Assembly (NCBI GenBank): GCA_049999805.1
Contig: JBNGIO010006150.1
Location: forward strand, 155,055-175,054
Origin: Folioceros fuciformis
Taxonomy: Eukaryota
Direction of reading: 5' to 3'
Length of the DNA: 20,000 nucleotides
The translations under genes were made by a program, and so were the position numbers. The notes below the pieces were generated by a model, which did no database searches, was not told where the DNA came from, and worked only from the letters and a program-made list of their open reading frames with translations. Positions 664 through 20,000 of this stretch are shown one piece after another; the first letter of the stretch is position 1; the number at the start of each line of letters is the position of its first letter.

Positions 664-1710
664 GCTGTTGCTTCAACGCATGAAGTGCTGCACAGCTCCA
701 GACCTCAGCAATCGCCTGCCCCAAGGTTCGGACCCCTGTGCTGGCAAGGACGTGGTTGATTGAGGTGAAATTGCTTTGAACAAGTTCCACTGGAGGTTCA
801 GAGGATCAGGGAGCTCAACATTGTTCTTCCACTGAGCTGAATAGCCTTTTCTTGAAACCAAGAACCTGGAGTCATCACAGGTCCCCACGGACAGAAGAGA
901 GGTAGCACAGATCGGGACCGCTCAAGGCCATTTGTCTTCACAGCGGCGCACATGAGCATCAAGATGATGTGCCGACGAGTACCTGGTGCAGGATGGACAT
1001 AGCGGCAATGTGAAGGGGTTCCAGTTCGTAAGTTTGCGATTGCAGGCAACCACTTTGGCTGTTCTCAATGCACTCCACCTCTCTGACGTTCATTTTGCAT
1101 CCTCCCAGGACTTGTTCCGGGGGGAATTCCCGCACACAACCGCGAGCTGCCAGCGTGAATGCGACTTGTTCACAGCTCCACGAGCCTCCTTGAAAACGCG
1201 GCCTTCTCAAGATCTAATTGGCTGCGATTCCCGCAATCCTCCATGACCAGGCAAAGCTCAAGCGTGGAAGTCACTGGAAAACGCCGGAAAGAATGAAAAC
1301 CACCTCCTGACCTCTCCCAGCTCCCGACAAGGGCCCTCTTCGCTGGAGGAGCTGGCGGCCGCGGAGCGGTTGGTGTGCAGTGCTCGCGGGGAGACAAGGA
1401 TTTGCAAGGACATTCGGTGAGCCTCGTAGGAATCCTGTGGGAGAAAGAAGCTGAGGCAACAGGCAGGTGGGGGAGAACGCAAGGGCCCCCCGGGAGGCCG
1501 CAAGATCTGAGCGCGAAAATGACACCAGCACCCAAGACCGCACCCGCACGCACGCACAGCGACGGGAGGAGGGAAGTATGGAGCTCGAGCTCGGAGGGGC
1601 AGACACTTTGAAGTCTTGCAGATCACGGCAGTAGATCGTCGGTGAGCTTGCAAGACGGACGACGACGGAAGAAGCGCATCGTCGCTTGCTGCTGCTGCTC
1701 GCCAAACAGA

Positions 1711-1785
1711 AAGAGGGGCGAGGAGAGAGAGAGGGAGAGAGAGAAGCGGGAAGCGGGGAACAGGGGGAAAGGAAGGGTGCGGGTG
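1711..1785. repeat. Purine-rich (GA)n low-complexity tract, read as (CT)n on the minus strand; likely promoter or 5' UTR element of the MS1/MMD1-like gene
   Basis: The sequence aagaggggcgaggagagagagagggagagagagaagcggg is directly visible. CT-rich tracts are common near plant transcription starts, so the assignment is inference. Confidence 0.5.
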
Positions 1786-3353
1786 GCGAAACTGGCGAAA
1801 CTGTGCCCCCGTCCACACAGCAGATTGAACTGTGACAAGAAAATGGATGCAGTTGGGTACCGATTCGTGGGAGAGGGAGAAATGGTGATTGCATGTAGGT
1901 GTGTACGCAGACCGTTTCTGTCAAGCAACTGGAACAGGTGGTACATCTCAACGGTGACAGGTATTAGCACATTTGACCAGATGTGACTCTGACCTAACCG
2001 GACTTCACATTATGATCGATTAGGTGGGATGGTTCCTTCCGAAGTGACCAAGAAGGGATGGCCGGAAACATGGGAAAACACCCTCCTCCGTTTCTGCTGC
2101 ACCTGGTACCAACAGGAGGACCAGTATCACTTCTCGGTACATGTCTCGTCTCCTGCTGCAGCTAGTCTGTATCACATTTTTTCGTTTCAGCCTGCACATC
2201 ACATGGTCCGCCCAGTTCACTACATGTATGGAATACTCTCTTGTTCGTTGTCCCTCACTCAATCAATCAATTTGTTGCCCTGATTATTTACAAAGAACAA
2301 GGTGGCAATGCATACCTACTTGCTGGAGAATGCTTACCATTGCAGGAGACTACTTGGGCACCTCCTTCATTTCACAGCACAAGTCATGTCTGTGTATGTG
2401 CTTACCATTGCAGCAGACTGCTCTGAGGACGATCTCCATCTTTCATGGTACTTGCCATGTCTTTCTGCGGTCCTTGAATGTGCCTCTGCTGACTCCACTG
2501 GACTTTTGTAGGTTTCCAGTCCAAGGATGCTGCTCAGAGTGAGTGATGAGGTTTACCTTGCTTTGCCTTGTATTACTGGGACATTCCACCACAAGCATGT
2601 CTCGGAGAATTAGCATAGATTTGCTCATGTTCACCTGGCTGCAAGGGACGTAAGTTGCAGACGTTCTGGTCCTCGAGGTTGGGATTAACCGACTCTGGAT
2701 TTCCATGGTGGTGACGTGTTGGGCGGTCTCATGCCGTGGTAGGGACGACCCTCCTTGTTGCAGGGTCGTCTGCTGTGAGTGGGCTACATCTTGGAAAACG
2801 AGCGAGTGAGTGTGAGGAAGAAGCTGCTGCCGAATCGTGGGACCATGCAGCGTCGCTCGTTGATGGCCTGTTTAAGGATTTGTAGCAGAGTAGGATGTCC
2901 TTGAGCTCCAGCTCCCAGAGAAGGACGAGAATGAGAAGATGAATTCTCTAGACCAAGACGCCTGCCTTTCATGTTGAGGCCCTGGTGTCTGCCATGCACA
3001 TGTAGCTCGATGAGACACAAAAGCATCCATGACGATGCACTGTTTCTGATGCCGGAAAGCAAACTCGATAATTCATGAAACCTACCTACAGCGTGCGTGT
3101 CGATCCTACTTGCCTGGATGCCGGTTCCTTATTCTCGCAAATGCTTTCTCTGCGTCCGGTTTTACAAGCCAAATGCGGTCCGTAACAGGAGAGCTGGAGC
3201 TAATTCCATTCCTGCCAACATCGGCAGATCCGCTGGCGTGCGAAAGATGCTACGAGAAGGGAAGACGGTGTCCCCGAGGATGGGCAGTTTGGGGTGGAGG
3301 TGGATCAGCGCAGCGAGGCCCTGACCTGGCGAACTGGGACAGCCAAGGGGTGC

Positions 3354-5324
3354 ATGGCGCTACGACTGCAGCGCCCGCCAGACAGTTTGGTGTTTCACGA
3401 CCCAGGCAGCGTGGTGATCAACCGACAACGTGCACGGGTGGATGCTTTCAAGCCACACTCTGCGCTGTCCACGCTAGAGAGACTAGGGCACACCTGCAAG
3501 GTTCCAGCTTCTGCTGGAGGAACTGCAAAGTTGCTTGAAAGGGACGTGCATGTGGAAAGGCAGGAGACCTTGGACCTCTTGGTGCAGCAAGGAGGTGGTG
3601 ATGTTCACACGGGTGTGCTGTACCGGGTGCTCAAGAGGTGCATGGCACACAAGGATCTAGCTCTTGGTAGGCTTGTGCATGCTCTTGCAGTCAGGAGTGG
3701 GTACGAGTCGGATGCGTTCCTTGCTAATCACGTCATCGGCATGTATGCCTCTCACAATCTGCTGGAGGAGGCAAGGCAGGTCTTCTTCAAGGTGGCTGAG
3801 CCTAATGCGCACATGTGGTGTTCCATCATTCTGGCCCATGTTCGGCAGGGACAGGCCGGTGAGGCCATCCATCTGTACAGGCTTATGAGGAAGACGGACG
3901 TGAAGGCAGACAATCATGTGTATGTTGCAGTTCTGACCGCGTGTGCCAGTGCAGAGGATCTGGTTTCGGGCAAGGAGGTGCATGCTGACATTCTGGCCAG
4001 TGCCGTAAGGACGGACATCTTTGTTGGCAGCAGCTTGGTGAACATGTATGCGAAATGCGGAAGCTTGGGGGATGCCCGCAGCGTATTTGATTCACTGCCG
4101 ACGAGGACAGTGGTTATATGGAATGCCATGTTGGCTGGCTATACGCAGCAGGGGTTGGGTCAGGAATCCTTGGCTCTGTATGCACGCATGCAAGAGGAGG
4201 GCATGGCTCCAGCTGATCATGTCACGTTTGTGTGCCTCCTGAACGCGTGCGCCAGCGTGGGAGCACTGGGCAACGGGAAGCAGCTCCATGCTCAGGTGCG
4301 TGAACGAGGGTTGGAAGCTCATGTTTCTGTGGGCAGCAGCCTGGTGGACATGTATGCAAAATGCGGGAGCTTGGAGGATGCTCGTGCAGTGTTCGACAGG
4401 CTGCCTGTCAGAACAGTGGTGACATGGAATGCTCTGCTCAATGGGTATGCCGGGCACAGCTGTGCTGCCATGGCCATGGAGTGCTTCGAAGAAATGCGTG
4501 GGCAAGGGGTCCAGCCAGACGGCATAACCTTCATCCATCTCCTCGTGGCGTGCAGTCATGCAGGCTTGGTGGCAGAGGGCCAACGGTATTTCAGGATGAT
4601 GGTGGAGGAGCATGGCATTGTGCCCACAGACTACCACTGCACTTGCATGGTAGATTTTCTTGGGCGGTCAGGATTCCTGGACGAGGCTGAATCCATCCTT
4701 CACACCATCCCACATGACATGGTAGGTTGGACATCTCTTCTGAGTGCCTGCAAAACCCAGGGTGATGCAGGCCGTGCACGTCGATGTTTCGACCATATTG
4801 TGGCATTGGAGCCCGAAAAGGCCAGTGCCTACGTCCTCCTGGGCACCATGTATGCAAATGCTGGCAGGCAACTCGATGTGGTGGAGGTGGAAAGCCTGAG
4901 GAGGTCGGCGGGTGCTTGGAAGAAACCTGCAAAGGCATGCATCGAAGTGCAGAACAAGGTGCACGAGTTCAGGGTTGGAGAAGACAGATCCGACTTATCC
5001 TCCAAACTCAGGAGCGTGGCTACAAGGTTGAAGGAGGAAGGAGGCCATGTCCCTCAAACGGAGCTGGTGCTAAAATCCGTGACTGAGCAGGAGAAGGAGG
5101 ATGCCTTGTGTGGACATGCAGAGAAACTTGCCTTGGCTTATGGCCTTCTCAACACCCCACATGGCACAACTTTGCTTGTTACCAAAAATCTTCGAATGTG
5201 CGGTGACTGCCACAGTAGCACCAAGATCATGTCCCGCCTTGAAAGGAGAGAGATCATTGTCAGAGATGCACACCGGGTGCATCATTTCCTCGACGGATTT
5301 TGTTCATGTGGTGATCGTCACTGA
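3354..5324 (+). CDS. PLS-class pentatricopeptide repeat protein with E1, E2 and a DYW:KP (DRH-type) domain; candidate U-to-C organellar RNA editing factor
   Basis: Intronless ORF, 656 aa from the first in-frame ATG (3354); the frame is open from 3204. Eleven PPR motifs L-S-P-L-S-P-L-S-P2-L2-S2 span 3609-4718, followed by E1 (MVGWTSLLSACKTQG) and E2 (ASAYVLLGTMYANAG). Then come WKKPAKACIEV (KPAxA, 4923), HAEKLA (5115), CGDCH (5199) and the C-terminus CSCGDRH* (DRH and stop at 5313-5324). Confidence 0.95.
   Translation: MALRLQRPPDSLVFHDPGSVVINRQRARVDAFKPHSALSTLERLGHTCKVPASAGGTAKLLERDVHVERQETLDLLVQQGGGDVHTGVLYRVLKRCMAHKDLALGRLVHALAVRSGYESDAFLANHVIGMYASHNLLEEARQVFFKVAEPNAHMWCSIILAHVRQGQAGEAIHLYRLMRKTDVKADNHVYVAVLTACASAEDLVSGKEVHADILASAVRTDIFVGSSLVNMYAKCGSLGDARSVFDSLPTRTVVIWNAMLAGYTQQGLGQESLALYARMQEEGMAPADHVTFVCLLNACASVGALGNGKQLHAQVRERGLEAHVSVGSSLVDMYAKCGSLEDARAVFDRLPVRTVVTWNALLNGYAGHSCAAMAMECFEEMRGQGVQPDGITFIHLLVACSHAGLVAEGQRYFRMMVEEHGIVPTDYHCTCMVDFLGRSGFLDEAESILHTIPHDMVGWTSLLSACKTQGDAGRARRCFDHIVALEPEKASAYVLLGTMYANAGRQLDVVEVESLRRSAGAWKKPAKACIEVQNKVHEFRVGEDRSDLSSKLRSVATRLKEEGGHVPQTELVLKSVTEQEKEDALCGHAEKLALAYGLLNTPHGTTLLVTKNLRMCGDCHSSTKIMSRLERREIIVRDAHRVHHFLDGFCSCGDRH
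4014..4445 (+). repeat. Internal 306-bp-period similarity between successive S-P PPR units within the DYW gene
   Basis: DIFVGSSLVNMYAKCGSLGDARSVFDSLPTRTVVIWNAML (from 4014) aligns with HVSVGSSLVDMYAKCGSLEDARAVFDRLPVRTVVTWNALL (from 4320). The similarity is also visible at the nucleotide level. Confidence 0.75.
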
Positions 5325-5917
5325 CCCTCAATTTTCCTTCACCTCCTCCATCGCTGAGCCCTCATTCCCCCTCCCAGCTACCTGTCTCAGGTGGACCCAT
5401 TTTTTCCCCGGCTAAGTGCTGTCAATCCTCCGGGGGTATCATACGCTGCTTAACAAAACGGCTTTCAACACACTGTACCTATTCGAGAAGGATAACAGTC
5501 ATTTTATTAACACGACGAGGAATAAAATCAATTCTGTTTCAAATGAATTTCTGGATTCGAGTAAATGCGATTAGGGAAATTTGCATGCAACACTTCTAGA
5601 CACCCAACCCAAAGTTCACTGAGCTTGCACTTCGACCTTCTGGACCCTTACTCTCTCTTCGCGTTCGCGTATTCGAAGAGCGGCTTCACACCGCGGAGCA
5701 GGCGGTTTTGCTGTGCAGATAGTTTATTCACACCGTCGACATGCCTGGAGTAGTGGAGTTAAATAATGCGTCTGTTAGTCCTGGTTAATTTTACGAGTCG
5801 AGAACGGTAGGCAGCGATCCCGGCTGGATACACAGGCGCTCGGTCCGTCATCGTTTTTTTGAATGGGACCGTGTTGAGCAGAGGTGGAGTGCGCCCTTGC
5901 TTTACAGCCAGAGCACG

Positions 5918-8900
5918 ATGGAAGGAGGAAGTCCTGGCAACGAAGATCTCTGGCAAGAGCTGAGGAACCATATTGCCGTGCTAGCCGTCGTTGATCAGGT
6001 AGGACTGGAAAAGACCACGAGGACGAGCTCAAAAGTGTTGATTTGTGCATGGCATCTGTCGGCTTGGTTGCAATGAGCTTGTTTGACAGAGAATTAAGAT
6101 GTGAATGAACCAGTTTCTTTATCCAGGCTTCCAAGGCCCAAGCTTTGCAGTTGCTGTCAGTGTTCTTCTCGCGTGTCACAGCAAAAATTGCCGAGTCCGT
6201 AAACGGCTCCACTCAAGGATTAGAGACGCTGATGAGCCTGTGGACGGAAGATGTTCTGCTACTCCATGACTGGCTGCGTCGGGAGCTGGGAGAGCAGACG
6301 GAGTTCCTCGACTTGGTATGTTGTGAAGAAGATGCAGCTGGAGGGGACTCACTTGAGGTTCAAGTTGTCAGTGAGCTTAGGGTTCATGGTGCGGGGCTGC
6401 GGGTGTCGAATGCGAGTCTAACAGCAGGGACGTTGCGCTGTTGCATACGTATTCTTCCTCTGATTGAGTGCTTCGACACTGGTTTGAGTGCCGACTGTGC
6501 GCTGATACTGAAGACGCTTCTGCAGAAGCTGTGCTCACCTGCCAGGATTCGGGAAATTTTCCAACGTGCTCTGGGGAATGGAATAGTGCATGGGAAGCAC
6601 TCTCCGTATATTCGTTCCTTGCTGTATTCGGAGAATATCAGTGTTTTTGAGAGCCGGGATGGACGGGAGGATGTGTGGTGCCGACAAAGGAGCTGGCAAG
6701 AGTGTTCTTCGTTTCAGGAGGTCAAGATCAACTGTCACGCGTTTGACGTCAATGGGGATTGCGGCCAAAGCGCGGGGAATTTAGAGCTCTTGAACCGTTT
6801 GGACAATCAGTTGGATGTCATATGTGCCATGCTTGAGGTCGGTGTCGTTTCCCACTGCTTTTTTCCCGTAGGATTACTACGCTGGCTGCGTTCCTTTCTG
6901 CTAGAGGTTGTAAATGTCCACTGAGGTCTGCTGTTTCGTCTTTCAGGTGTACATGGATGAACTACTAGTAAGTCCTTACTTATTTGAGGTCTTTCTTGAA
7001 GGCCAAGGCGATGAAGGAAGCGGTGGATATGCTTTTGGCAGCCAGATGGAAATAGTGCTTGAAGCGTCTTACCTCCATGCCCTTCTGTCATTTCTTCGGA
7101 AGAAGGTTGAACCAGGTGGCGCATCTCTGTCAAATGAAGATGACAAGCTCACTCGACTTACTTGTGTGACATTACCTGCTAGTGTTCTATTGTTGGACAT
7201 GGTATCTGCGGATGGAGCTCCCAGTTTGCTTCTTACACACATTGCAAACCTTGTGACTGGATCACTACAAAGATTGCATCCGCATGGCAGTCCTGTCTCA
7301 AGGTCTGATCAGCTGAGAGACAAGCCTGTAAATATCACGGAAACCAAAACGCAGGGGTTGGTTGGTTCCAATGAGTTATTTCAGTTCATGCATGTTGCTG
7401 ATCCAGTTAGGGGATCATTGTCGGGTGAAGACACTGATGGCTCATGCAAGCAGAGAAGATTTGGAGACATCTTATCTCCCCGCGTAAACTTGGGACTGTC
7501 TTTGTCAGTCCTCGAAACTGCTGTTCAGTTGTTTACTAAGGTCTTCAATTCAGCATCAGTGGCAAGTCCAACGGATTGCCGCAACACTGATATCCACCCA
7601 GGGCCCAGTAGTTTCTTTGCTGCCCGCTTGCACGAGCACATGGCTTTGGGAAGGTTCTTGAGTACCAATGTAGGTGTGGCAGTCGATCGCGTGTTTTCAA
7701 GTTCTGTTGGTATTTTTACAGACGCTAAAGAGTGTGACAGCGGATGCTGTTGGGGAGAGTGTTCTGCGTCCAGTATAGAGAAGACTTCTCAGCTGTGCAG
7801 CTTGTGTCGAGATCACTCACGGGAGAACCAACATCAAGAAGCTAATATGTGCTGCAGATTGACAGAATTGCGTGACGGTGGTAAGCAACAAGAGTATGAC
7901 GCTGTGGCTAGTCAGGACTTAGGCGAAGGTGTCATGCATTCGGATGGCCAGGAAACCTTGAAAAACTCAGAGGAGTTGGCCTGTGCTGTCCTGCGTTTGA
8001 TCAGCGGTGCTCTGAATCGGATATCAGCCGAGATGTGTGAGGTCAAGCAAGTCTCCGTAACAAGAAGCCAACCGGATGTGGAAGTTTTAGTGGAGATTCG
8101 CAGCATCTCCGATTGCATCTCGTCAGTCTTTCAGCGTTGTATTCAATGTCTGAAAGTAGATGATCTAGCAGGACAAGAATGTATTGCGGGCACGTGGGAA
8201 GAAACCAAATCACTGCAGTTCAAGGAAACAATCCAGTGCACTTTGAATGTTTTTTCTAAGATCATCCAGATAGAGACTCAACGAGGGGTTGGTGGTCAAT
8301 TATTGATGGAGTACATACATGTACAGAGGTCCTTGGGAGATCTGTTACGTGGGGAAGTTGGTGAACTTAGAGAAAACCATTCTTCTCAAACTGAAGCTGC
8401 CGACAAATTCTGCAGGGATGGCTGCTCACCCATATCAACCACAGCAGACACCGAAACTACGGGAAGCGTTCCATTGGCATCAGTGTTCCCTAGGGCATCG
8501 ACTCTGAAGATTTTTATGAAACTGAAGCAAGGAGTAAATCATAGCTCTTCAAAGCCAGGACAAAGTGGCAGGTTTGCCTCTAGCATACCCCGCTTCCGCC
8601 ACGGAATTTCCTGGATCTGGATTTGTGAGCTGTCATATCTTTAACGTTGATGTTTTCGCCTTGCGCAGCACATACTCAAATAAGAAGAGAGCTCCGGAAG
8701 GCAGCACTTTGGGTAGCGGCGAGGGGGCACCTGCCAAGCAGTTGAAAGAGTGCAAGGGGGTGGGAAATTCTTTTGTTCAGGCTTGCATTGCAATGGATAA
8801 GTTCTGCGATGGAGATACTTTTAATGATATAAACGACTTCGTAGTTTGTAAGGAGGGCCGTGACTATGTTAAATATAAGAAACAACGGCAAAAGATTATG

Positions 8901-8993
8901 AAACGCAACCGAACTCGCAACTTTATGAGACGGCAAGAAGAAAGGAGGGAGCTACTTGCACAGTTGGCCCTTATCTCTGAAATGGAACAGTAG
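5918..8993 (+). CDS. Uncharacterised protein of about 913 aa, 4 exons: join(5918..5998,6127..6837,6947..8571,8669..8993)
   Basis: Three long ORFs and a short first exon are joined in frame by GT..AG introns of 128, 109 and 97 nt, giving 2742 nt (914 codons including the stop). The C-terminus is basic (DINDFVVCKEGRDYVKYKKQRQKIMKRNRTRNFMRR). No domain was recognised with confidence, and the first exon is the least certain part. Confidence 0.75.
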
Positions 8994-9136
8994 TAGTTGG
9001 ATGCACAATGACGGGCTGGGAATCAGAGCAGAAATCTTCTGGGCGTAAAATTTTCTTTGCACCAAGCGGGCAGTTTGTGTATCCACTCCTGTAGGTGATC
9101 CCATGTTTTTGATGCCCATGTTCTGCTCGAACCAAG

Positions 9137-10150
9137 CTAGAGCTCAAGCCTTTCAGCATATAAGGTTAGCCCCATTTTCAGTGAGTCCAGGCTAAACCCA
9201 CCTGCAACTTGCACACTGATCACTCCAAGCTCCGAGATCTGCAAGTCAAACAAAAGTCTTAAGGCAAAGGCCCATCTGGACATGTTTCGTCATGATTTGG
9301 CCATCAAATCTGTGAGGGAGACTTAATGTAACTGCGTGCTTAGTGCAGACAGACTCATGGGGCCACTTACTTCCTGGATGTTTTTCTGCTCGTCATCGAA
9401 GAAAAGGAAAGAGTTGAGTGGGAGCTTGGTCTTCTCAGAGATGGCCATGAAGTGTTCGAGCTTCGAAGGTGCGGGGAACATCTCCTGCTCCATGACCACT
9501 GATGTTAGGATAAAGAACATGGTTCGCAAATAAATTTGTCAGAATTACGGTTTCAGTTTCCAGCCGAGAACAACATCAAGGTCTTGCATGAACCACCACA
9601 CCTTCACTACAAAATGGTGACTTATGTTGAGCTTGCTGAGGAAAGCACTGGCAGTTTCTGGTGTTGGAGTTCGAGATGCGACTGCTAGGGGTATGTTGCT
9701 AGCTGTAAGTGCATGGAGAAGGCAGGGTACCTGTGGGAACAGAACTGGATTATAGTCCAGACTCCGAAACTGACTGTCGGATCCAACAGGCCACATCAGT
9801 AACAAGACACATGACCAACCAAGCCTCAAGTGTCGCAAATGCACATACCAATAGAAGGGCCAGACAGTGTGATCCAGATCCAACACTACAAGGGATGGAA
9901 GGACTGCTGCCTGATGAAGAACCTCCGCAGCCCTTTCGATGCACCTTGCTCCTTCAATTGCAGCCAAAGCCTCCCAAGGACCATTAAGACGAGAAGACGG
10001 TTCCACACACTGGGCTACGACGTGCTTTGGACGAAGAAAGCGCAGCCTGCGTATATCAGCTCTGTGCCATCTGCTGGCTGCAAATGGAAGCCTTGTCGCA
10101 TCCAACGAATTATGCAATACGGAGGCCGGTACTGGCAAAGGGCTGGCCAT
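9137..10150 (-). CDS. MDP1: Magnesium-dependent phosphatase 1 (HAD-superfamily) homolog, 4 exons: complement(join(9137..9238,9371..9484,9602..9773,9849..10150)); alternative start at 10186
   Basis: HAD motif I LVVLDLDHTVWPFYC, motif II LAVASRTPTP, motif III K in SKLEHF, motif IV FLFFDDEQKNI, and the final exon ISELGVISVQVAGGFSLDSLKMGL. All junctions are GT..AG and in frame, giving 229 aa from ATG 10150. Confidence 0.88.
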
Positions 10151-10414
10151 GTCCTGGAGACGAAAATGGATGCCAAAGGTCCCCATAAGCCTTCCAGATC
10201 AACAGTTCCTACGTCACCCCAGACTCAGTTCGGACAGAAGAAAAACTAGCGTCTATAGGAAGGACACAAGGTTAGGGATGGGCTGCAAATTGGCCGTCTA
10301 CTTGATCCAAGTATAACAGCCCTCACCATTTATAAAAGACCCATGTCACTTACAACACACCTCAAGTTTTGGATGAAGGCATTCCCTCCTTACAAAGACC
10401 ATAGCCCGCTTAGA

Positions 10415-10446
10415 TGCACAAACAGCACTTACGTGCTGCTTGTGCA
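10415..10446. repeat. 14-bp inverted repeat (1 mismatch, 4-nt loop) in the divergent MDP1/ARM intergenic region
   Basis: tgcacaaacagcac-ttac-gtgctgcttgtgca. Confidence 0.6.
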
Positions 10447-10923
10447 CCTTTGCAAAGAGCGCCCATGTACCAAAGTAAGGTAGTGGAGCCTATGGAGGAT
10501 GGAGGAGGAGGGGGCTGCAAAAGGGAGATTGTACCACTCTATCTATCGAGTATGTATGTAGGAGGAGTGAACAGGATTTAGATAACGTGACAGAAAAGTA
10601 AGCGTGAATGGACAACAGGAAAAGGGATGGTTAAGCCAAGCGGAGAATTAGGGAACGGCCCCGCGCGCCTCGCTTGCAGCCGGTTCTCCCGCCGCGCCTT
10701 CTCCCTCGCAAATTCACGACACTCGAAATTTGAGCGGCAAGCGAGACGAGGTGAGGCGAGGCGACTGTGGCCCGCTTTATCATTTCCAGCCTGCACAATG
10801 CAAGCCAGGCAATCGCTCGACCGCAATCTCACAATCTTGGTGCAACATCCCGGCAGTTGAGCAACATCCAGCACTCCCCCAATCCACCACACAGCATCGC
10901 GCCTTGAAGAAGTCTGGCGGAAC

Positions 10924-13900
10924 ATGGATGTGTCTTTGGATTGCTCTTGGAGCCACCGGGGACAGTCGGCAGATCTGGCCCCTCGCAGCCTGCTCGCGCT
11001 GCGGGGAGTGGCGGCCGCCACCAGGGACAATCGGGAGCAGTACCGGGCCAGCAGGATGTCCGGGATCGAATCCGCAGCCAGCATGTTTCTTCGATCCGGC
11101 AGCTTGGCATCCCCGGAAGCAGGCCCCGCTCCCGGCCTCCCCTACGACTCCAAGTGGGGCTATGCACCGCAGCACTGCTCCAGCTGCGACCTTGGAGCGG
11201 GCGATCTCCACAGCATGCTTAGGCCCGACGGGGAGCAGACCAGAGCAGGAGCGGACTCTTGGGGGGATGGAGGTGTAGGGTGCGGGAGCGGGGAGGCCGG
11301 GTTCACAGCCAAATTGCAAGCGCACGGGCAGGGTTTGCGGGAGGGGGAGGTGAATGGCGTCGTGGCGGGGCAGGATTTTCCAGCTCCCGGGAGCCGGGCC
11401 GCAGGCTACGGCACGTCGGCGCTGGTGCATGAGGCGGAGACGGCGAGATCATACACAGTCCAGGACCTGATCGCGGCGCTGCAAATGGGGGGGAGCAGGT
11501 CCAAGATGGAGGCGGCCATAACTGTCAGGTCGCTGGCGGCGTCGCACAACATGCATCAGGTGGCCTTCATCTCCGCTGGAGGGATCCGGCCTCTGGTGGA
11601 TTTGCTGAGCTACGAGGCCGGGGAGACGCACTGGCCTCCGGAAATGCGGGAGAAGGCCACCATAACTGTGCGGGCTGAGGCTGCCTTGGCGCTGGCAAGT
11701 CTGTCGGTGAGCAACGACGACAATAAGGGAGCAATTGGCGCCGCAGGGGCGATTCCTGTGTTGTGTGACCTAATTCAGTAAGCACGCCATCGCCCACATT
11801 GCTTTCTTGCTTTGCAGAGCGGAACAGAGGGGGAGGACTGATCATCCCAGACAACATTGTAATGAAGATGTAAGGGGGAAAAGAAAAGAAAGCACCAGTA
11901 GTGGAGAGGCAGGCCTGCACGAGTCTTTCGTCTCTCCAGTCCGTCCTAGTGTAACACTGAAGTATAAAACTCACTGATCTTCGCAAAGGTTCGATGAGGA
12001 AAGTTACAACGCAGCATTGGCAAGCTACCAGAAGCAGGAAATGGCACCTTTCTTGGTCCTGGCCAGAGATGCTGGCGCTGGGGCGCTCTCATGCCTGGCC
12101 AGGAACGAGAACAACAAGGAGGCTATCATCGCAGCCCAGGCTGTTCCTGCTCTTGTGCGCATGGTCGACCGGGGAACAAGCTTTGGCAGGTACCCACTTC
12201 CTCAGTCTTGTCACTGCTCGCTGCAGCATTTCCTATTTATATATTCCCTCAAGTGTGTTGATTCAGGGAGTTCGCGATTTGAGTACGCTGCTTTTCCGTC
12301 TCATAGCTAGCTCCTTGTTGCTTGTCCCCCCTCCCCATGGTGCAGGGCGGCTGCTGCCAATGTTCTCGCTAAACTGGCAACAGGAAGCAATGCTCAGAAC
12401 AAGTTGCTGCTGGGAAAGGAGGGTGCTATATCAGCTATCCTTAGGCTGTTGAAGGATGGGTCTCCCAAAGCTCGAGAAACTGGAGCTGAAGCTCTGTTTA
12501 ATCTGGCTATGCATCCGTGGAACAAGTCCAAGATTATACAGGAGGGGGGGATGGCTAGCCTGCTGAGAATGGTTGAAGGAGGGTCACAGCCAGAGAAAGA
12601 TGCCGCAACCGTAGCCTTGAAAATATTGCGATCTTCCGTGGGGGCTCCTGCCAATCCTCGGCCATTGACAGGGCCGAGGTGCAGCAGGCGCTCGGAAGGG
12701 ATCACTATGCGAGAAAATGAGCTCGAAACGTCGAAGTTTGACAGCATTCAGCAGAGCCGGGACCTTTTCAAAGACCTCAATGAACATCCACAGAGCAGCA
12801 CTGAAAAGAGTTGTGTCTCAAACTGTGGAGGAAGCATTTCGGTGCTCAAGGCGTTCAGTGGATTGGGTGCGACAACTCCGATGCAATCGGAGCTGACGTC
12901 GTCACTAGCGCCGCACCTAACTGGCCAGCCTTCCATGCAGGCAGACGCAGCCATCAATTTCACTAAAGCAGCCCCCCAAAGTGTGCAAAGCAGGAAGAAG
13001 CTGAAAACCTCGCACTCTGACGTTGGCGGAGGTTCGTGTAGAGTCGGTGACCAAGTTGCTGCAAAGGTAGAGTCTGTACAGATGCTCTATGCTGAAGATC
13101 GAGGGAATAGAATCTCGTCCAGCAGCTGCTGGGAGAGAAGTGGGCAGGTGTTTCAGGGCTCTACTCTTCAAGAGGCGCCACAAGCAAGGTTGAGGCCGTC
13201 TAGGCAAGGAGTAGATGGGGCAACTCAGCCTGTTGCTGGAGGAATATTTGCCCTTGTAAATGCTCTGTCGTCACTGAACCCAGGGGCTCAGGAATTTGCT
13301 GCGTTGGCCTTGATGCTGCTTGCCTCTCAAGGAGGCTACGAAGTTAAGACTGCTATAGCAGATGCAGGGGCGATTGAACCGCTAATTTTTATGGTTGGCA
13401 GCTCCAGTTCTCCTCTAATTAGGGAATCCGCTGCCGCAGCCATTGCGAAACTGGTTTCATGTCACCCAGGAAACAGAGCTGCAGTGGTTAGAGCGGGTGG
13501 GGTGAAGGCAATGGTGGACATGGCTAAGTGGTCGTCCACACTTGTTGATGGACCGTCTGGAGGTGGTAATTTGGGGGCGAGAACCCAAGCAGCAGCCATA
13601 GTCGCAGTGCTCAACATTTCAGAGGTCCTCGACAATCACAGCATGGGGATGGGTCTAAGGGACGCTCTACCATGCCTAGCACAGATGTTGGAGAGTGAAA
13701 ACGTGGACGAGATAACAGCTGGTGTTGCTGGCCTTCAAATACTAGGCGTTTCGCTAGGCATTGAACCAGCCCCCATAATGGAAAGGGAATGTGGGACAGA
13801 AGAAGACTGTTTTGAGTTCAAGAAGTTTGATTTTGTTGCAATCGAGATGGTCACCGCACTGCTAGATGTGATGAGGGGAAGCTCTGCGGAAGCAAAAGAG

Positions 13901-16220
13901 TCGGCCACGGAAGCTCTGGCAGGACTGGCAGCAAGACTTTCGAATGACGGGCCTGAGAATGGTGGGAGAATGCCCGAGACTTGGAGAAAGTATGGGATCG
14001 ATGCATTACTACTACTGCTGAGAAGGGCACCCCTTACAGCCTCTCTGAAGGAAATAGTTGCGGGAACGATAGCTTGCGTAGTGGCAAGCCCGGTTCTCTG
14101 TGTTTATTTGTGTGAGTCCGCGCTAGTTCCTGATCTTATGAGGTAACAATTGTCATCTGGCCCGGCGTCACGATTGGATCGTTGCGTCACATGGTCTTGG
14201 TTTGCTGTCGTACGGTAGTAAAAATTCTGACTACTCGAATCCATGCGCAGGCTTATACAGGAAGGACCCACGTTGGCGACTCGAATACTTGCAGCAGCGG
14301 CAGTTGCAAATTTGGGTAGCAGGAAAAAGACACTTGATGCGGTCTCCGATTCTGACATTGCTCTATTGTTGAGAATCATCGGAGGGCAGTTTGAACTACC
14401 TGAACCCACTGCCAATACAGGTGGAGTGGACGACGTCTGTTTCCTTCAGCCTTTCTCCAATTCAGAGACTCAACCATCCCTGAACAGTCAGTTCCAGCAA
14501 CGTTCTATGCCCCATATGCTCTTGTGCGAGCACGCATCGGCTATACTAGTCTATGCAGCTCTCTCGGGAGAGAACAGGAAGCAAGCAATGATTGAATTGG
14601 GAGCTGCTCCTATCCTCGTGAGAGTACTCCAAAGCTGTATTTCTACAGCAGAAAGCTGCCTGCACCCGACCTTCTTCCAAGGTGTGAGGCCGATAGTTCC
14701 TCAAGCAACTCAAGAGTTCGCCTTGATGGGGCTCATTTTGTTGGCTGACAAAAGTACAGAGACCATGGAGAAGATTGTAAAAGCTGGAGGCATTCCGGTG
14801 CTCGTGAGGTTACTGGGAGCGACTGGTGGCAGGGGCAAACTTGGTGCGAGCTGGAGTGAGGTAACATCCAGTCATGCTTCTCTGCTCTTGTTCCAAAGTC
14901 GTATTTGCTGATTGATCACTGTCCCCATCCTGGTGCATGCACATGTGCACAGATGGCAGCTGCAGCACTGTTGACAATGGCTGGTTGCGAGGCTGCCAGG
15001 GAAGAGATTATTAGCGTCGGGGGCATTTCGTCGTTGGTGCAGGTTCTGAAAGGCGAGGGGGGCTCATCGATTCTTTCCCTGACAGGATTGGCAGCGATGG
15101 CTCAGCTTTTGGGCGTGTTAGCGTTGAAGAGCCACGAGGCCAAGCTTCATATGGCAAAAGCTGGGGCTGTTAGGTGCTTGGTGGAGATCCTCGTCGGTGG
15201 GAATTGTCTTGCCTGGGCAGCAGACGGAGAATGCGGTCCAAGGGAAGGGCCCGGTTTACTAGCCTTGGCCCAGGAAGCGGCGGCTGCAGCTTTGGCCACT
15301 GTTGTCCTCGACTGCCCTGAAAATGCAGAGGCTGCAGTAGAAGCTGGTTCCATCGGACCCCTTGTACGCATGCTGGGAGTTCCATCTTCTCCTCCCAAAG
15401 CATCCGGAGGCATCCTTGAGCTAGCACCAGAGAGTGAACGCGGAGACAGTGGGGCGAGCTTGGCAAACACAGGAGTCGCCCAAGATACCACAGCTCTCAA
15501 AATTTTGTCGCCGCCAGACTCTGACAGACGACCACCGAAATTAACGACAGGCCACGACGACAACGTACGCGGAAGCAGAGTCGGGGGCTCCTTGGCAGCC
15601 ATGGCTGCTCTGGGCAACATGATATCTTGCTTGCCGCAGTGCAGGCGAGAAATTATAGACGCAGGAGGCTTGGCAAAGCTGATCGGCCTTTTACACTCCA
15701 AAGCCGGTGTGCTGTTAAAGGCTCAAGGTGACGGGGAAAGTATTGCGCATGCTCCGGAAGGTCAGATAACGTGTCCTACCAAGCTGCAAGAAAGTGCAGC
15801 GCTGGTCCTTGGATTGCTTGCGGAGGGTGACCCCAAAGTGCAGGAAACCATCGGATCGACGGGAGTTATTCCTACATTGATTGAGCTCTCAGCCATCTCG
15901 AAAAATGACGGTTTTGCTGCACGTAAGTTTGCGTGTCTGTCCATTTTCTTGTCCTTCACAGCTCTGCTCTGCATTTTGGATTGTCTGATTCACCACCAAG
16001 TGTACATCAGGAGCTCTGTTGAGAGTTGGCAAGGACCACGAACAGAACCACAAGAGGATCAAAGAGGCTGCCATGGTATGTATTCTTCACGTTTTAGCAC
16101 TTACGCCCAGAAACTTGTTGCATGGGGGAAAAACTCAAAAACGAACTTCGACTAATTTCAACCAACCCACTATCTTCAATGCAGAACCAAGGGTCACATG
16201 AGGTGAAAGGAATGGAGTGA
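10924..16220 (+). CDS. Large armadillo (ARM) repeat protein of about 1510 aa, 7 exons: join(10924..11777,11989..12189,12346..14142,14251..14860,14953..15922,16011..16075,16185..16220)
   Basis: Repeated ARM signatures include NKGAIGAAGAIPVLCDLI, NKEAIIAAQAVPALVRMV, NKLLLGKEGAISAILRLLKDGSPKARETGAEALFNLA, KTAIADAGAIEPLIFMV, KIVKAGGIPVLVRLL and QETIGSTGVIPTLIEL. Six GT..AG introns (211, 156, 108, 92, 88, 109 nt) preserve the frame, giving 4533 nt. Confidence 0.85.
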
Positions 16221-17132
16221 GCACTGCGTATCATGCCTGCTACAGTCGGCCACTTTGGGAGGTACATGCACCATACATACTTTCCGACCCCTCGGGGTTC
16301 GGATGTTACTAGATCAAATTCTGATGGCTCTAACGGCTTACATTGAACCAGGTCACTCGTGTATTGAATCGGCGGACCTGGAACGTATCCCAGAAATTTG
16401 CACCTCGTGAGGTCCGTTTCTGAGCATCGGTCCGTGTGCCCACTGCGACTTTTAGTACGACGGTGTTTTGAAGTGCTGCCAGTTCATGCTTTCCAGACGT
16501 GTTTCTTGCACCTGGTTATAGTCCAGGATTTCCAAATTTTGCAGGACCTCCAACAGGACGACTCTGCAGTGCAACAAGGCACCGACCGAGCTAGCATCGG
16601 ACGGGAATTTTGTAGGAAGGACACACAGCAGCCAAGCCATAGCATATCAGCCCACCCCTGCCAACCTCAGGGCCCAAATCTATCCTCCGTCACACAAGCT
16701 GCGACGGCAGACTGGTGCACCTAATGGCTGCATGAGAAATTGTGTGACTGCATCCTTGACACCTGAGACAAGAAGAGGCCAATACTCTCCCCACATCTCA
16801 GCCTTCGCAGTTTTCATTTCCTTCCAAGGACATGGCAGCTGGCCATTCTCGTTCTCTGATACCGGGACGGCTGCGTGCAATACTTGGAAAATGCATCGCT
16901 ATTATTTTTATAGCGTTCACTCACATCTCCAAACCATTCCGACAGCAAGACTCCCGGATGCGCTTCAAAAAACCCTTTTCACCCAGACGGAAAGATTCCA
17001 AGACGACAGATATGCAGAACCAAGCAATTGAAGGCAAGTTTTCACAAATGTATATTGGAGCAGGACCTCAGACCTAGGTAACACACTTGTGCATTGCTGC
17101 AACTCGTAGGGCCCGATGAGAGATTCTCAATG

Positions 17133-17745
17133 CGGCACTCAGCCTTGTTTCTTCATTTCAGAAAGAACTTGTTTCAAAAATTGCATGAATCTCTTCACTC
17201 TAGAGGGGTTATGTCATCTGCTTCCGTGGCCCAATTTCTTTCCTCTTTGCCTGCATCTTCTGTGCCTCGTTCCACATCTGGGCACTGGCACTGGTGTCTG
17301 TGTTTGACATCAAGGGATAAGCTACAAGATCTTTTCAATTCAGCTCACAGCTGAAGTGGCACCATGGAGTCCCAGCTCCAAAGCCGTGTGTGCCAAACTG
17401 ACTCATCAGCCAGTAAAAGCATTGCCCTCACCACAGCCAGTGTCGTGTTAAGCTGGCCAGCACGTCCCAGGGTGTCCACCATGCATGCCTAGAATTTTGC
17501 AGTCAGGGACATGTGTCTGTCTCTCATCGCCTCGAACTACTCTTGCCCCTCCTTCACTAGTCCCGCATGACTGCAGCCTGCAAGCGCAGCCAGGAAAGCC
17601 AAGCTGTCTAGCTGTCTTCCACATAGTTTCATTCTGTGCAGCAAGTGGAAAACCGTGTTCTGATCTCCTTGACGGGGGTATCCGTTGATTAGTGCAGTGC
17701 AGCCCACGATGTCACTTTCAGGGCAATGAATCAACTACCTGTTGT
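17133..17745 (-). pseudogene. Degenerate PLS-class PPR fragment (P2-L2-S2-E1-E2 plus the start of a DYW/E+ region)
   Basis: P2/L2 reads DIVGCTALINGYPRQG...DSLAFLAALAGCSHAGLVKEGQE*, with a stop where Tyr is expected. After a frameshift, S2 reads ACMVDTLGRAGQLNTT...ADESVWHT. An E2-like VAYPLMSNTDTSASAQMWNEAQKMQAKRKEIG follows, then SEEIHAI / LKQVLSEMKKQG*VP, with further stops and frameshifts. Confidence 0.8.
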
Positions 17746-18147
17746 GTATCAACCTGTCCTATCAGAGCTGGAAGCCTCACAGAAATTTGAGCGGATCACC
17801 TTGAGAACCGTGTATACTAATGTATACTAATCAAGGTTTACTTACGTCAGGAACACCGCGCTGAAGTTCCTTTCTTCTAGTCCTATTAGACTTCTTATCC
17901 GTCCTGGGGTCCATCCCTCCCGACGTGAGGGTCAGCGGCCATCGATGGAGTCAAATCGTGCTCTCCAGACCGTATCAATGACAATCGCATGTCGGTAGTG
18001 AAAACTCTAAACCACCACTAAACCCAAATCAAGCACACGCAAAAACCTTTACCTCCCAGGAGAGGGTTTCTCGACACGGGAGACCCCTACAACGATCACT
18101 TCAAGGGGAAGGAACTCTCGACGTGAAGGACCCGGATTCTAACTCCC

Positions 18148-19987
18148 TTATAGACCGATATCCTCAGGCAAAGCGGTCTCCAGAAGGTGCAAGCTGCGAA
18201 CACATAAAGGAGGCTTAAGCATAAGTATTACAAGGGAGAAAAATAAAAGAACCTGAGACACCGGAAGAAGGGTTGATCTCAGAAGGCGTGGAGGCAAGCA
18301 GGCAACCTGAAGGCCATCAGTGCCATCCCGACAAAGACAGCCGCAACTGCTTGGCGATGCCCTGCATACTCCAGAGCTAGGGGCATCATCTCATGTAAGG
18401 TGAGGAAGGCCATGATGCCACCGACTGTTTGATTCAGGACAGCCAGGACAACTGTCACAAAAAATGTATGGGATACATGATGTAACGTTGTTTGCAAATT
18501 ACAACTCATCACCCTCACCGGCTGCTAGTAGCCCCTCTAACACCTCAGGCGACAAGCTGCTTGGAAATAGCAACGCTGCACAAGTATTCGGGTGACGTAA
18601 GAACAAGCTCCGGCGCCCACCAGGCGTGACCAAGATGGACCTTTCAAAGACTTTTACCAACAATAACCACCCCAAGAGGTTCAGCAACGCCAGAGATTGC
18701 TGCCAGGCGGAAAGCTGTCCACTTGCTACAAAAAAATGACGGGGACACAACCACATGAGATAAGAAAAAATATGAAATCATTTCACGCGCTGTGACCTGT
18801 AACGTACCTTCGAGTAGCAAAATATACAGGGAGAGCAACGGCCACACCCTGTGCAATCCAAGGTCAGCAAATTCAGAAAGGCCCGCTGCCTAGTGCAAAC
18901 GACATAGTAGCCATGTTACAGTAAATATCCATCCGGTGACCCACAGCAACTCACCTCCGGAACATTGTGCAATGCAATAGCTAATGCCAAACTGACACCA
19001 ACCCGCAGACCCTACAGGGTACATGTCGGCTCTCATAAGTAACGAGAACAAGTGTGAACAGCACGACCAAAGGAAACTTGCCTGTCTACTACAAAATTCA
19101 ACACTCTTCTCCGGCGAGCTGCAGAACGTGGTGCACCTTGAGCGATCCAAGAAAAACAGCCATTCCTTCCGGGAAATTGTGAAGGCCGATACCTGGAAAA
19201 ATAGGATCAAGAACGTAGTGCAGCTGGACGGAGAAAAGGTACTAGGAAATGTTGTTGTGACAGACGATCACGGTCGAAAACAGTAGGGCAGTACGATACC
19301 AATGGCTGTGACGATGCCACTGAAGTAAACTTGTCTCCTTCGCTTATTCATCTCAAGGATTTCTTTGTTGTCCGTTTTCTTGCCGCCATTACTTTCCTGT
19401 GTGTGTCGGATAAGAGAATGTGCAGTCACTAAGTCACCCGGAACGATATTGGTCCTAGACATTCCCGACGACCTTCACCAAAAAGCATATTTAGATCAAG
19501 ACCTTAAATTTCAACACGGCGCTTTAGCGTGGGAATAACAAGAACTACCTTCACCCGCTTGACCGCTGCGGAAGCCGGAACAAAGGAGGGGTCCGGAATA
19601 AGAGCAACAACCCCTGCAAAGAATATCACTCCCGCAAAGAACTGCATCCTTCACAAAAAATTGCACAAAGCACGACCATCAACATAGCACGGATAGGCTG
19701 GAACTAGGTTCTGTGGATGGAAACATCCACAGTGCAACACTACTACTAGCCGATGTGAAGAAAAAACGCCGGCTTGCTCACATGGAGAAGAAAACGCTTT
19801 CCAAAGGCAGTGGAACATCGGTATCTCAACAGCCAGACGATGGCCTCTACGCAGGAGCTGCAAAAGAGCGAAGGAAACGAGAAGGGCGCCTCACCCAAAC
19901 ATTGGCTCGCCCAAACCCGATTGCATTGATAGCATTGTGCATGAGATCGTTGAAGGACAGCGTGAGCATCAACCCAGCTGCCAAGCC
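18148..19987 (-). CDS. ZTP29: ZIP-family (ZupT/GufA-type) zinc transporter, ZTP29-like, with the 5' end outside the window: complement(join(18148..18193,18307..18424,18519..18575,18658..18725,18808..18848,18955..19011,19137..19192,19300..19396,19549..19641,19895..19987))
   Basis: The spliced product reads GLAAGLMLTLSFNDLMHNAINAIGFGRANVWFFAGVIFF...RRQVYFSGIVTAIGIGLHNFPEGMAVFLGSLKGLRVGVSLALAIALHNVPEGVAVALPVYFATRSKWTAFRLAAISGVAEPLGVVIV...GGIMAFLTLHEMMPLALEYAG...SLHLLETALPEDIGL*. It has twin HNxPE metal-binding motifs, and all nine introns are GT..AG and phase-consistent. Confidence 0.93.
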
Positions 19988-20000
19988 CTGAGCAGAAGCA

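What the first reader, a model, noticed from the sequence alone, without database searches (positions are those of the whole stretch)
4917..5324. DYW:KP / DRH-type domain: candidate reverse (U-to-C) RNA editing enzyme
Seen in sequence: the PG box is replaced by KPAKACIEV, the zinc-binding motif is HAEKLA rather than HSE, and CxxC (CGDCH) and the catalytic Glu are intact. The usual SHP segment is missing (FRVGEDRSDLSSKL), and the protein ends in DRH instead of DYW. Established: DYW:KP variants (KPAxA; GRP, DRH or DYW endings) are restricted to plants with U-to-C editing (hornworts, some lycophytes, ferns), the DRH subtype is reported from hornworts, and designer DYW:KP proteins can perform U-to-C editing heterologously. 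Inference: this is an intact native U-to-C editor. The class is already known, but its chemistry and the targets of native members are largely unresolved.
Basis: partly seen in the sequence, partly recalled or inferred. Interest (0 to 1): 0.85.

Follow-up and report, generated by a model that had tools for sequence, protein, structure and literature searches.

The report
Hornwort-type DYW:KP (DRH) PPR editing factor gene

Summary
ORF 3294-5324 (+; first ATG 3354) encodes a PLS-class PPR protein. Its last 133 residues (nt 4923-5321) carry every DYW:KP mark: KPAKA box, 3-4-residue deletion at the xHP site, HAE, Lys88, Met92, CxxC and a DRH end.

Classification holds without those marks. With the diagnostic columns removed, the domain sits in a 45-row clade holding all 40 KP-like rows and no PG row (SH-aLRT 85). 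A KP profile beats a PG profile by 65.7 bits. The domain matches 43 of 43 columns conserved in KP-like domains.

The nearest named relatives are from the hornwort Nothoceros. A transcript assembly with spliced neighbouring genes holds identical contigs over parts of the gene.

U-to-C activity is inferred, not shown. By early 2025 no native KP protein had a known activity. Only GRP-type and fern-type designer proteins edited; the DRH-based design is not among them. Residues that tune direction in designer KP6 point both ways here.

Verdict: a real, intact new member of a known kind. Interest is modest.

The parts
3354..5324 (+). Intron-free coding sequence of the PPR-DYW:KP protein (656 aa from the first ATG; the frame is open from 3294)
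   Evidence: ORF list and translation; first Met at aa 21 = nt 3354; the start codon is inferred, not shown
3354..3608 (+). N-terminal non-PPR extension (aa 21-105), presumed organelle presequence; poorly conserved
   Evidence: No Pfam motif here. Of the differences to related species listed, 13 of 15 in aa 24-86 change the residue. Targeting was not tested
3609..4718 (+). PLS-type PPR tract: L1-S1-P1-L1-S1-P1-L1-S1-P2-L2-S2 (aa 106-475)
   Evidence: Pfam PPR 2.2e-40, PPR_2 8.1e-38; motif boundaries set by hand from the numbered sequence
4719..4922 (+). E1 (aa 476-509) and E2 (aa 510-543) PPR-like motifs
   Evidence: Pfam E_motif PF20431, 2.3e-07, aa 493-550; boundaries set by hand
4923..5321 (+). 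DYW:KP deaminase-like domain, 133 aa (aa 544-676)
   Evidence: PF14432 8.5e-38; KP profile 236.9 bits against PG profile 171.2 bits; AF2 model pLDDT 89.8, TM 0.86 to 9kfx_A
4923..4937 (+). KPAKA box (domain positions 1-5), in place of the xPGxS 'PG box'
   Evidence: Positions 3 and 5 are A/A here and in 93%/88% of KP-like rows, against G/S in 100%/88% of PG rows
4968..5009 (+). Segment with the 3-4-residue deletion (xHP missing)
   Evidence: 4-residue gap against 9kfx and 7o4e in the HMMER alignments; this segment is 13 residues here against 17 in PG rows
5115..5123 (+). HAE: zinc-binding His608, KP-typical Ala609, catalytic Glu610 (domain positions 65-67)
   Evidence: Ala at position 66 in 98% of KP-like rows against Ser in 100% of PG rows
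5184..5186 (+). Lys631 = Lys88 of the DYW:KP numbering, the proposed nucleophile and nitrogen donor
   Evidence: Position 88 counting the K of KPA as 1. Lys88 is essential for U-to-C editing in designer KP2, KP3 and KP6 (PMC11845758)
5196..5210 (+). Met92 followed by CGDC (CxxC zinc ligands, aa 636-639)
   Evidence: 'V95 corresponds to M92 in DYW:KP domains' (PMC9478123)
5271..5321 (+). C-terminal H..HH..CSCGDRH segment ending in the DRH triplet (5313-5321)
   Evidence: H134, C143 and others are invariant in alignment A1. That this segment forms the second zinc site is recalled from the DYW:PG structures, not tested here

Best explanation
Window 3354-5324 (+) is an intact, intron-free nuclear gene of a plant, most probably a hornwort. 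It encodes a PLS-class pentatricopeptide-repeat protein of the DYW:KP class, DRH-ending type.

Proposed working (inferred from the family):
1. The N-terminal extension sends the protein into plastids or mitochondria.
2. The 11 PLS motifs plus E1 and E2 bind a specific stretch of about 13 nt of an organellar transcript, one motif per nucleotide. This places a uridine about 4 nt downstream of the S2 motif in the active site of the C-terminal domain.
3. The domain converts that U to C using the zinc site (His608, Cys636, Cys639), Glu610 and Lys631 (Lys88).
4. [quoted passage not shown]

Shown here: the gene is intact, it belongs to the class, every known catalytic residue is present, the deaminase fold is predicted with confidence, related species hold a counterpart, and cover by a transcript assembly is consistent with expression.

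Inferred: organelle targeting, the RNA target, the direction of editing and the chemistry.
For: Sequence marks: KPAKA box, HAE, CxxC, Lys88, Met92, DRH end and a 133-aa length with the xHP deletion. These are the three 'conspicuous differences' that Hayes et al. name for KP domains plus the Lys88 of Ichinose et al..

Profiles: a KP profile (39 rows, window left out) scores 236.9 bits and a PG profile (148 rows) 171.2 bits. The difference of +65.7 compares with a median of +65.3 for KP members and a maximum of -19.8 for PG members.

Tree: 147 DYW domains, 110 of 187 columns kept, with the KP/PG box, the indel segment, the x of HxE and the last three residues removed. All 40 KP-like rows lie in a 45-row clade (SH-aLRT 85) with 0 of 50 PG rows. 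The window lies in a 23-row subclade (SH-aLRT 93) with all 13 DRH and all 4 GRP rows.

Conservation: the window matches 43 of 43 columns that are at least 90% conserved in 42 KP-like rows, and has the KP state at 7 of 7 class-discriminating columns. Positions 5, 84, 85, 86 and 119 among these were not used to define the classes.

Fold: AF2 mean pLDDT 89.8. The best PDB matches are the DYW:PG structures 9kfx_A (TM 0.86), 7o4e (0.74) and 7w86 (0.72).

Lineage: the closest named relatives (65-79% identity) are EukProt proteins of the hornwort Nothoceros aenigmaticus, one of them ending in DRH. DRH and GRP are described as the two hornwort subgroups (PMC9478123).

Expression: run X1 holds contigs identical to the window that skip GT..AG introns of neighbouring genes (6838-6946 and 18194-18306), so it contains mRNA. 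It also holds an identical 879-nt contig over 4355-5233, and it shows cover and none of the listed differences at the 33 places listed between 3147 and 3938.

Related species: runs X2, X3 and X7 (three other organisms) hold contigs about 92-93% identical over 3105-4001, 4381-4909 and 5033-5345. Among the listed differences in aa 106-663, 9 of 16 are synonymous, including both in the DYW domain.

Function of the class: designer KP2, KP3 and KP6 edit U to C in E. coli and human cells, and need HAE, CxxC and Lys88 to do so.
Against: - No native DYW:KP protein had a demonstrated activity as of PMC11845758 (Feb 2025). None of the titles and abstracts listed in my three searches reports one.
- Only three of the seven designer proteins edited: KP2, KP3 and KP6. 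KP1, 'mainly based on DRH', is not among them. The DRH type therefore has no direct support, not even from a designer protein.
- KP6 also edits C to U. In bacteria the designer reaction stalls at a crosslink, so the native chemistry is unresolved.
- Residues that shift KP6 towards U-to-C are mostly present here (C6, E47, A116, V119; not T17). So are all three that shift KP6 towards C-to-U (G64, V113, H133). Direction cannot be read from the sequence.
- Lys88 is conserved in PG domains too, so it does not discriminate.
- The gene has no intron, so the identical X1 contigs could come from DNA carried over into the RNA sample.
- The N-terminal 85 residues look unconstrained (13 of 15 listed differences are non-synonymous). 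Start codon and targeting are uncertain.
- The differences analysed are 31 from the 40 rows shown out of 635 in the tool's table, chosen by the tool.
Confidence: 0.7

Rival explanations
1. It is a genuine DYW:KP protein, but in vivo it deaminates C to U, or works in both directions, as designer KP6 does.
For: KP6 edits C to U in human cells and in vitro. The window carries G64, V113 and H133, the three states that turned KP6 into a C-to-U-only enzyme. All residues of the canonical zinc-dependent deamination are present.
Against: The same three residues are the consensus of 133-aa KP domains, the consensus towards which the KP6 mutants were made. The window also carries 4 of the 5 U-to-C-favouring states. 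KP2 and KP3, the hornwort-type designers, showed U-to-C and no C-to-U editing in E. coli. The class occurs only in lineages with U-to-C editing.
Confidence: 0.12
2. It binds RNA but is not itself an editing enzyme. On this reading DRH-type domains are inactive alone, need a partner, or serve another role such as RNA stabilisation or recruitment.
For: The DRH-based designer KP1 is not among the three designers that edited. No DRH-type activity is reported in the passages and listings I saw.
Against: Every catalytic and zinc-binding residue is kept, and the window matches 43 of 43 conserved KP columns. That is not expected of a domain that has lost catalysis. Four of the seven designers failed, including non-DRH ones, and the authors blame site preference and design.
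Confidence: 0.1
3. It is a recently duplicated, dispensable or decaying paralogue with no function of its own.
For: PPR genes in these lineages multiply by dispersed duplication of intron-free copies (PMC13386178). A decayed PPR fragment lies in the same window. The N-terminal region changes freely. No close full-length orthologue was found in the protein collections; the best full-length identity is 62%.
Against: The frame is open for 676 codons with no defect. Conserved columns match 43 of 43. Counterpart contigs at about 92-93% identity occur in runs of three other organisms. Among listed differences in the PPR and DYW part, 9 of 16 are synonymous. Identical contigs occur in a transcript assembly.
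Confidence: 0.05

Closest known systems
Hornwort DYW:KP proteins of the DRH subgroup (Gerke et al. 2020, as cited in PMC9478123; the original paper is not held)
   Same: KPAxA box, HAE, xHP deletion, 133-aa domain and DRH terminus on a PLS-E1-E2 tract. Clusters with the other DRH-ending domains. The nearest named relatives are hornwort proteins.
   Different: The exact protein is not among about 15 billion catalogued sequences. The best relative is 80% identical in the domain and 62% over the full length. The PPR tract is short, with 11 PLS motifs. In my tree the DRH-ending rows are not one clade separate from the GRP rows (7 changes).
Designer U-to-C editors KP2 and KP3 (hornwort GRP consensus), KP6 (fern consensus), and KP1 (DRH consensus) (PMC9478123, PMC11845758, PMC11332814)
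   Same: Same domain class and numbering: A66, K88, M92, CxxC. The window carries the 133-aa KP consensus residue at 7 of the 8 positions named in the KP6 tuning study.
   Different: This is a native sequence, not a consensus. It ends in DRH, whereas the active hornwort-type designers are GRP type. KP1, the DRH design, is not reported among the active ones. At the position after 'ST' behind the CxxCH motif the window keeps Lys, where the four GRP-ending relatives have T, E, E and Q. The paper says GRP proteins replace a conserved lysine by glutamate; that this is the same position is my reading.
Canonical DYW:PG C-to-U editing factors (OTP86 7o4e/7o4f, DYW1 7w86, synthetic PPR-DYW 9kfx)
   Same: Same fold (TM 0.72-0.86), the same HxE...CxxC zinc site, the conserved active-site lysine and the C-terminal H/CSC segment, with 39-53% identity.
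   Different: KPAKA instead of xPGxS. Ala instead of Ser in HxE. A 4-residue gap at the SHP site. L84/L85/V86/V119 instead of I/R/I/F. DRH instead of DYW. The PG profile scores 65.7 bits below the KP profile.

Membership tests
DYW:KP domain PPR proteins | DYW-type deaminase domain (Pfam PF14432) with an HxE(x)nCxxC signature | tested here: met
   PF14432 E 8.5e-38; HAE at aa 608-610 and CGDC at aa 636-639; confident model matching the DYW crystal structures
DYW:KP domain PPR proteins | KP(A)xA box in place of the PG box | tested here: met
   KPAKA at aa 544-548; A3 and A5 against G3 and S5 in PG rows
DYW:KP domain PPR proteins | Ala (or Cys) instead of Ser between the zinc His and the catalytic Glu | tested here: met
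   HAE; the feature is named in PMC11332814 and PMC11845758
DYW:KP domain PPR proteins | 3-4-residue deletion removing xHP; domain of 132-133 aa | tested here: met
   4-residue gap against 9kfx and 7o4e; 133 aa from the K of KP to the end
DYW:KP domain PPR proteins | Lys88 in the active site (needed for U-to-C editing in designers) and Met92 | tested here: met
   K631 is position 88 and M635 is position 92. Lys88 is shared with PG domains, so it is necessary but not discriminating
DYW:KP domain PPR proteins | Groups with KP and not PG domains when the rest of the domain is compared | tested here: met
   Tree without the diagnostic columns: KP clade of 45 rows, SH-aLRT 85, no PG row; KP profile 65.7 bits above the PG profile
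DYW:KP domain PPR proteins | Domain fused behind a PLS tract ending P2-L2-S2-E1-E2 | tested here: met
   Pfam PPR, PPR_2 and E_motif; motif map made by hand, without the dedicated PPR motif models
DYW:KP domain PPR proteins | Occurs in a hornwort, lycophyte or fern | tested here: inconclusive
The nearest named relatives are from the hornwort Nothoceros aenigmaticus. Short GT..AG introns and a very large PPR family in the runs fit a hornwort but prove nothing
DYW:KP domain PPR proteins | Site-specific U-to-C editing of an organellar transcript | not testable with these tools
   No organelle genome or editome of the organism is at hand; needs an assay or a knockout
DRH subgroup of hornwort DYW:KP | Protein ends in D-R-H | tested here: met
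   GDRH then stop; 12 further DRH-ending domains among the 245 compared
DRH subgroup of hornwort DYW:KP | Forms a subgroup distinct from GRP proteins | tested here: inconclusive
   The window lies with all 13 DRH and all 4 GRP rows in one 23-row clade (SH-aLRT 93). GRP rows are one group (SH-aLRT 94), but the DRH label needs 7 changes on this 110-column tree
Canonical DYW:PG C-to-U editing factors | PG box, HSE, SHP segment and a DYW terminus | tested here: not met
   KPAKA, HAE, a gap at SHP and a DRH end; the PG profile scores lower

The most novel reading that the evidence does not exclude
DRH-type native proteins such as this one may behave differently from the GRP-type and fern-type designer enzymes. 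They might need a partner or a translated target, complete turnover to free cytidine where the designers stall at a crosslink, or work in both directions. That would explain why the DRH consensus design is not among the active ones. A compact native protein like this (11 PLS motifs) would then be a good object for working out the real U-to-C chemistry.
Probability: 0.15. Interest if true: 0.6.

Novelty: new member of a known kind. Interest (0 to 1): 0.25.

Why it matters
U-to-C RNA editing is the only pyrimidine amination known on RNA, and its native chemistry is unsolved. Open points include the nitrogen donor, how the crosslink is released and whether the enzyme is consumed. By 2025 no natural DYW:KP protein had been characterised.

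This gene is an intact and apparently expressed native example with a short PPR tract, so it could be used for such work. It is, however, one of a large family already catalogued in hornworts. One review quotes over 1400 PPR proteins in hornworts. The sequence itself adds nothing that was not already known about the class.

Tried and rejected
- Whole-genome search: no genome is held for this window, so paralogue counts and organelle targets could not be obtained.
- Earlier scan notes: none for this genome and none for similar sequences.
- Orthologues: a search among shorter proteins with words drawn from the whole protein listed 120 of 960 hits. Only the 8000 candidates sharing most words were scored. 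It found no fragment above 73% identity, so no orthologue sequences were available for a proper dN/dS. Among the proteins collected up to then, the best full-length identity is 62%.
- RNA evidence: no listed holder is on record as RNA. That X1 contains mRNA is my deduction from its spliced contigs. Parts of the gene without X1 cover (about 4004-4094 and 5282) are no evidence of anything. The very high depth at 4003-4669 in all four runs, with 'goes back' joints, comes from many PPR paralogues sharing the S1-motif sequence. It is not expression of this gene.
- Reading the editing direction from the KP6 tuning positions: both the U-to-C-favouring and the C-to-U-favouring states are present, so the approach was dropped.
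- Papers: Gerke et al. 2020 and Gutmann et al. 2020, which define DRH/GRP and DYW:KP, are not held. Their content is cited only through passages of PMC9478123. Supplementary figures were not seen: the DRH/GRP trees and KP alignments of PMC9478123 and Figs S1-S2 of PMC11845758. They could bear on the numbering and on KP1.
- Neighbour ORFs: Pfam on seven ORFs or exons gave only Acid_PPase and Arm hits. A ZIP-transporter reading of the minus-strand gene at 17.8-20 kb was not confirmed.
Full report
**Observation.** The window holds one long open frame at 3294-5324 on the + strand (676 codons; first ATG at 3354) with no interruption.
- KPAKACIEV at nt 4923-4949
- FRVGEDRSDLSSKL at 4968-5009
- HAEKLA at 5115-5132
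- CGDCH at 5199-5213
- GDRH at 5310-5321, followed by TGA

Pfam finds PPR repeats (2.2e-40), an E motif (2.3e-07) and the DYW deaminase domain (8.5e-38 at aa 584-674). Alignments to the only solved DYW structures, all of the PG type, show a 4-residue gap where they carry S-H-P, and about 40-50% identity elsewhere.

**Anatomy.** From the numbered sequence I set the motif boundaries by hand:
- aa 21-105: non-PPR extension
- aa 106-475: L1-S1-P1-L1-S1-P1-L1-S1-P2-L2-S2
- aa 476-509: E1
- aa 510-543: E2
- aa 544-676: DYW domain, 133 residues

Counting the K of KPA as position 1, the lysine of KNLRMC is position 88, the alanine of HAE is 66, and the methionine before CxxC is 92. This agrees with the numbering of the designer KP proteins: Lys88, 'V95 corresponds to M92', F133 as the last residue.

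**Is it KP rather than PG?** I collected 265 DYW proteins from two searches. Of these, 245 gave a complete domain. By motif they split as follows:

| Group | Rows |
|---|---|
| KP-like, DRH end (window included) | 13 |
| KP-like, GRP end | 4 |
| KP-like, other end | 23 |
| Mixed | 57 |
| PG | 148 |

1. Tree. It used all 97 non-PG rows and 50 of the 148 PG rows (every third). The box, the indel segment, the x of HxE and the last three residues were removed, leaving 110 of 187 columns. All 40 KP-like rows fall in a 45-row clade (SH-aLRT 85) with no PG row. The five extra rows are KP variants with HVE or HCE or a longer insert. The window lies in a 23-row subclade (SH-aLRT 93) with every DRH and GRP row. 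It is a quick search on few columns, so deeper forks are unresolved, and the DRH label is not one clade.
2. Profiles. A KP profile built without the window scores it 236.9 bits and a PG profile 171.2 bits. The difference of +65.7 equals the median for KP members and lies far from the PG maximum of -19.8.
3. Conservation. The window matches 43 of 43 columns that are at least 90% conserved in KP-like rows, and has the KP residue at all 7 discriminating columns, including 84, 85, 86 and 119.

**Fold.** With a 54-row alignment, AlphaFold2 gives mean pLDDT 89.8 and pTM 0.82 for aa 530-676. Foldseek against the PDB puts six DYW:PG chains first (9kfx_A TM 0.86, 7o4e and 7o4f 0.73-0.74, 7w86 0.72). 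Bacterial deaminases follow at TM of about 0.5. No KP-type chain appears among the sequence matches or the top fold matches.

**Organism and relatives.**
- The best relatives (60-80% identical in the domain, at most 62% over the full length) are unnamed assemblies.
- Two relatives are EukProt proteins of the hornwort Nothoceros aenigmaticus, one ending in CSCGDRH.
- The exact protein is not among about 15 billion catalogued sequences.
- PMC9478123 states that DRH and GRP are the two hornwort subgroups. [quoted passage not shown]
- A hornwort origin is therefore likely but inferred.

**Expression and conservation.**
- Run X1 holds contigs identical to the window that skip canonical GT..AG introns of two neighbouring genes, so it contains mRNA of the same strain.
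- X1 also holds an identical 879-nt contig over 4355-5233. At the 33 places listed between 3147 and 3938 it shows cover and none of the listed differences.
- The gene has no intron, so DNA carry-over cannot be excluded.
- Runs of three other organisms hold contigs about 92-93% identical over most of the gene.
- Of the differences the tool listed (40 of 635 rows), those in aa 24-86 are 13 non-synonymous to 2 synonymous. Those in aa 106-663 are 7 to 9, and both in the DYW domain are synonymous. This is a small sample chosen by the tool. It is a weak sign of constraint on the PPR and DYW part and of none on the N-terminus.

**How it most likely works.** By family, the PPR tract binds an organellar transcript and the domain converts a U about four nucleotides downstream to C.
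- Designer KP2, KP3 and KP6 do this in E. coli and human cells. They lose the activity with HAA, AxxA or Lys88 mutations.
- Hayes et al. propose that the lysine attacks C4 of uracil to form a Schiff base, and that the zinc-bound hydroxide and the glutamate help release cytidine. In bacteria the reaction stalls at the crosslink.

All residues this model needs are present here.

**What weakens the inference.**
- Natural KP activity was unknown in 2025.
- My searches list no paper reporting a native KP enzyme or knockout, judged by titles and abstracts only.
- The DRH-based designer KP1 is not among the three active ones.
- KP6 is bidirectional.
- The window carries 4 of the 5 U-to-C-favouring KP6 substitutions and also all 3 C-to-U-favouring ones.

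**Verdict.** U-to-C editing is the best-supported function (about 0.7) but is inferred. This is a new member of a known, large family. It is of practical use as a native test object but is not surprising.

Noticed in passing
window 17420-17722 (-), within 17345-17734: A decayed PPR fragment (P2-L2-S2-E1-like, 34% identical to aa 371-472 of the main protein) with two in-frame stop codons. An identical 615-nt X1 contig covers it (17124-17738), so it may be transcribed, perhaps as part of a neighbour's untranslated region.
   Followed up: partly
window 6124-8567 (+): A gene with one 109-nt GT..AG intron (6838-6946), shown by a spliced 2909-nt X1 contig. The product has only a sub-threshold match to DUF7812 (E 6.9e-05, 22.1 bits against a cut-off of 27).
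   Followed up: partly
window about 10900-15921 (+): A large armadillo-repeat gene. A 4140-nt contig of a related species (X3) aligns in four blocks (11619-12185, 12342-14140, 14249-14858, 14951-15921), which gives three introns. Pfam finds Arm repeats in three ORFs.
   Followed up: partly
window 17843-20000 (-): A multi-exon gene with at least nine short introns (84-253 nt, GT..AG read on the minus strand), spliced in contigs of all four runs. Exon translations look like a membrane metal transporter to the eye, but Pfam gave no hit on the two single exons tried.
   Followed up: partly
window 9545-10186 (-): An ORF with an Acid_PPase domain (PF12689, E 5.8e-14). X1 word depth in this region is 63 (bin 9339-10005).
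   Followed up: no
window 4003-4669: Summed contig depth of 1,700-18,000 in all four runs, with many 'goes back' joints and loose ends around 4328-4384. This is the conserved S1-motif sequence shared by a very large number of PPR paralogues in these organisms.
   Followed up: no
window 3354-3608: The N-terminal extension differs from the related species mostly by residue-changing substitutions (13 of 15 listed). Either the presequence evolves fast or the true start lies further downstream; the next ATG is at 3642, inside the first PPR motif.
   Followed up: partly
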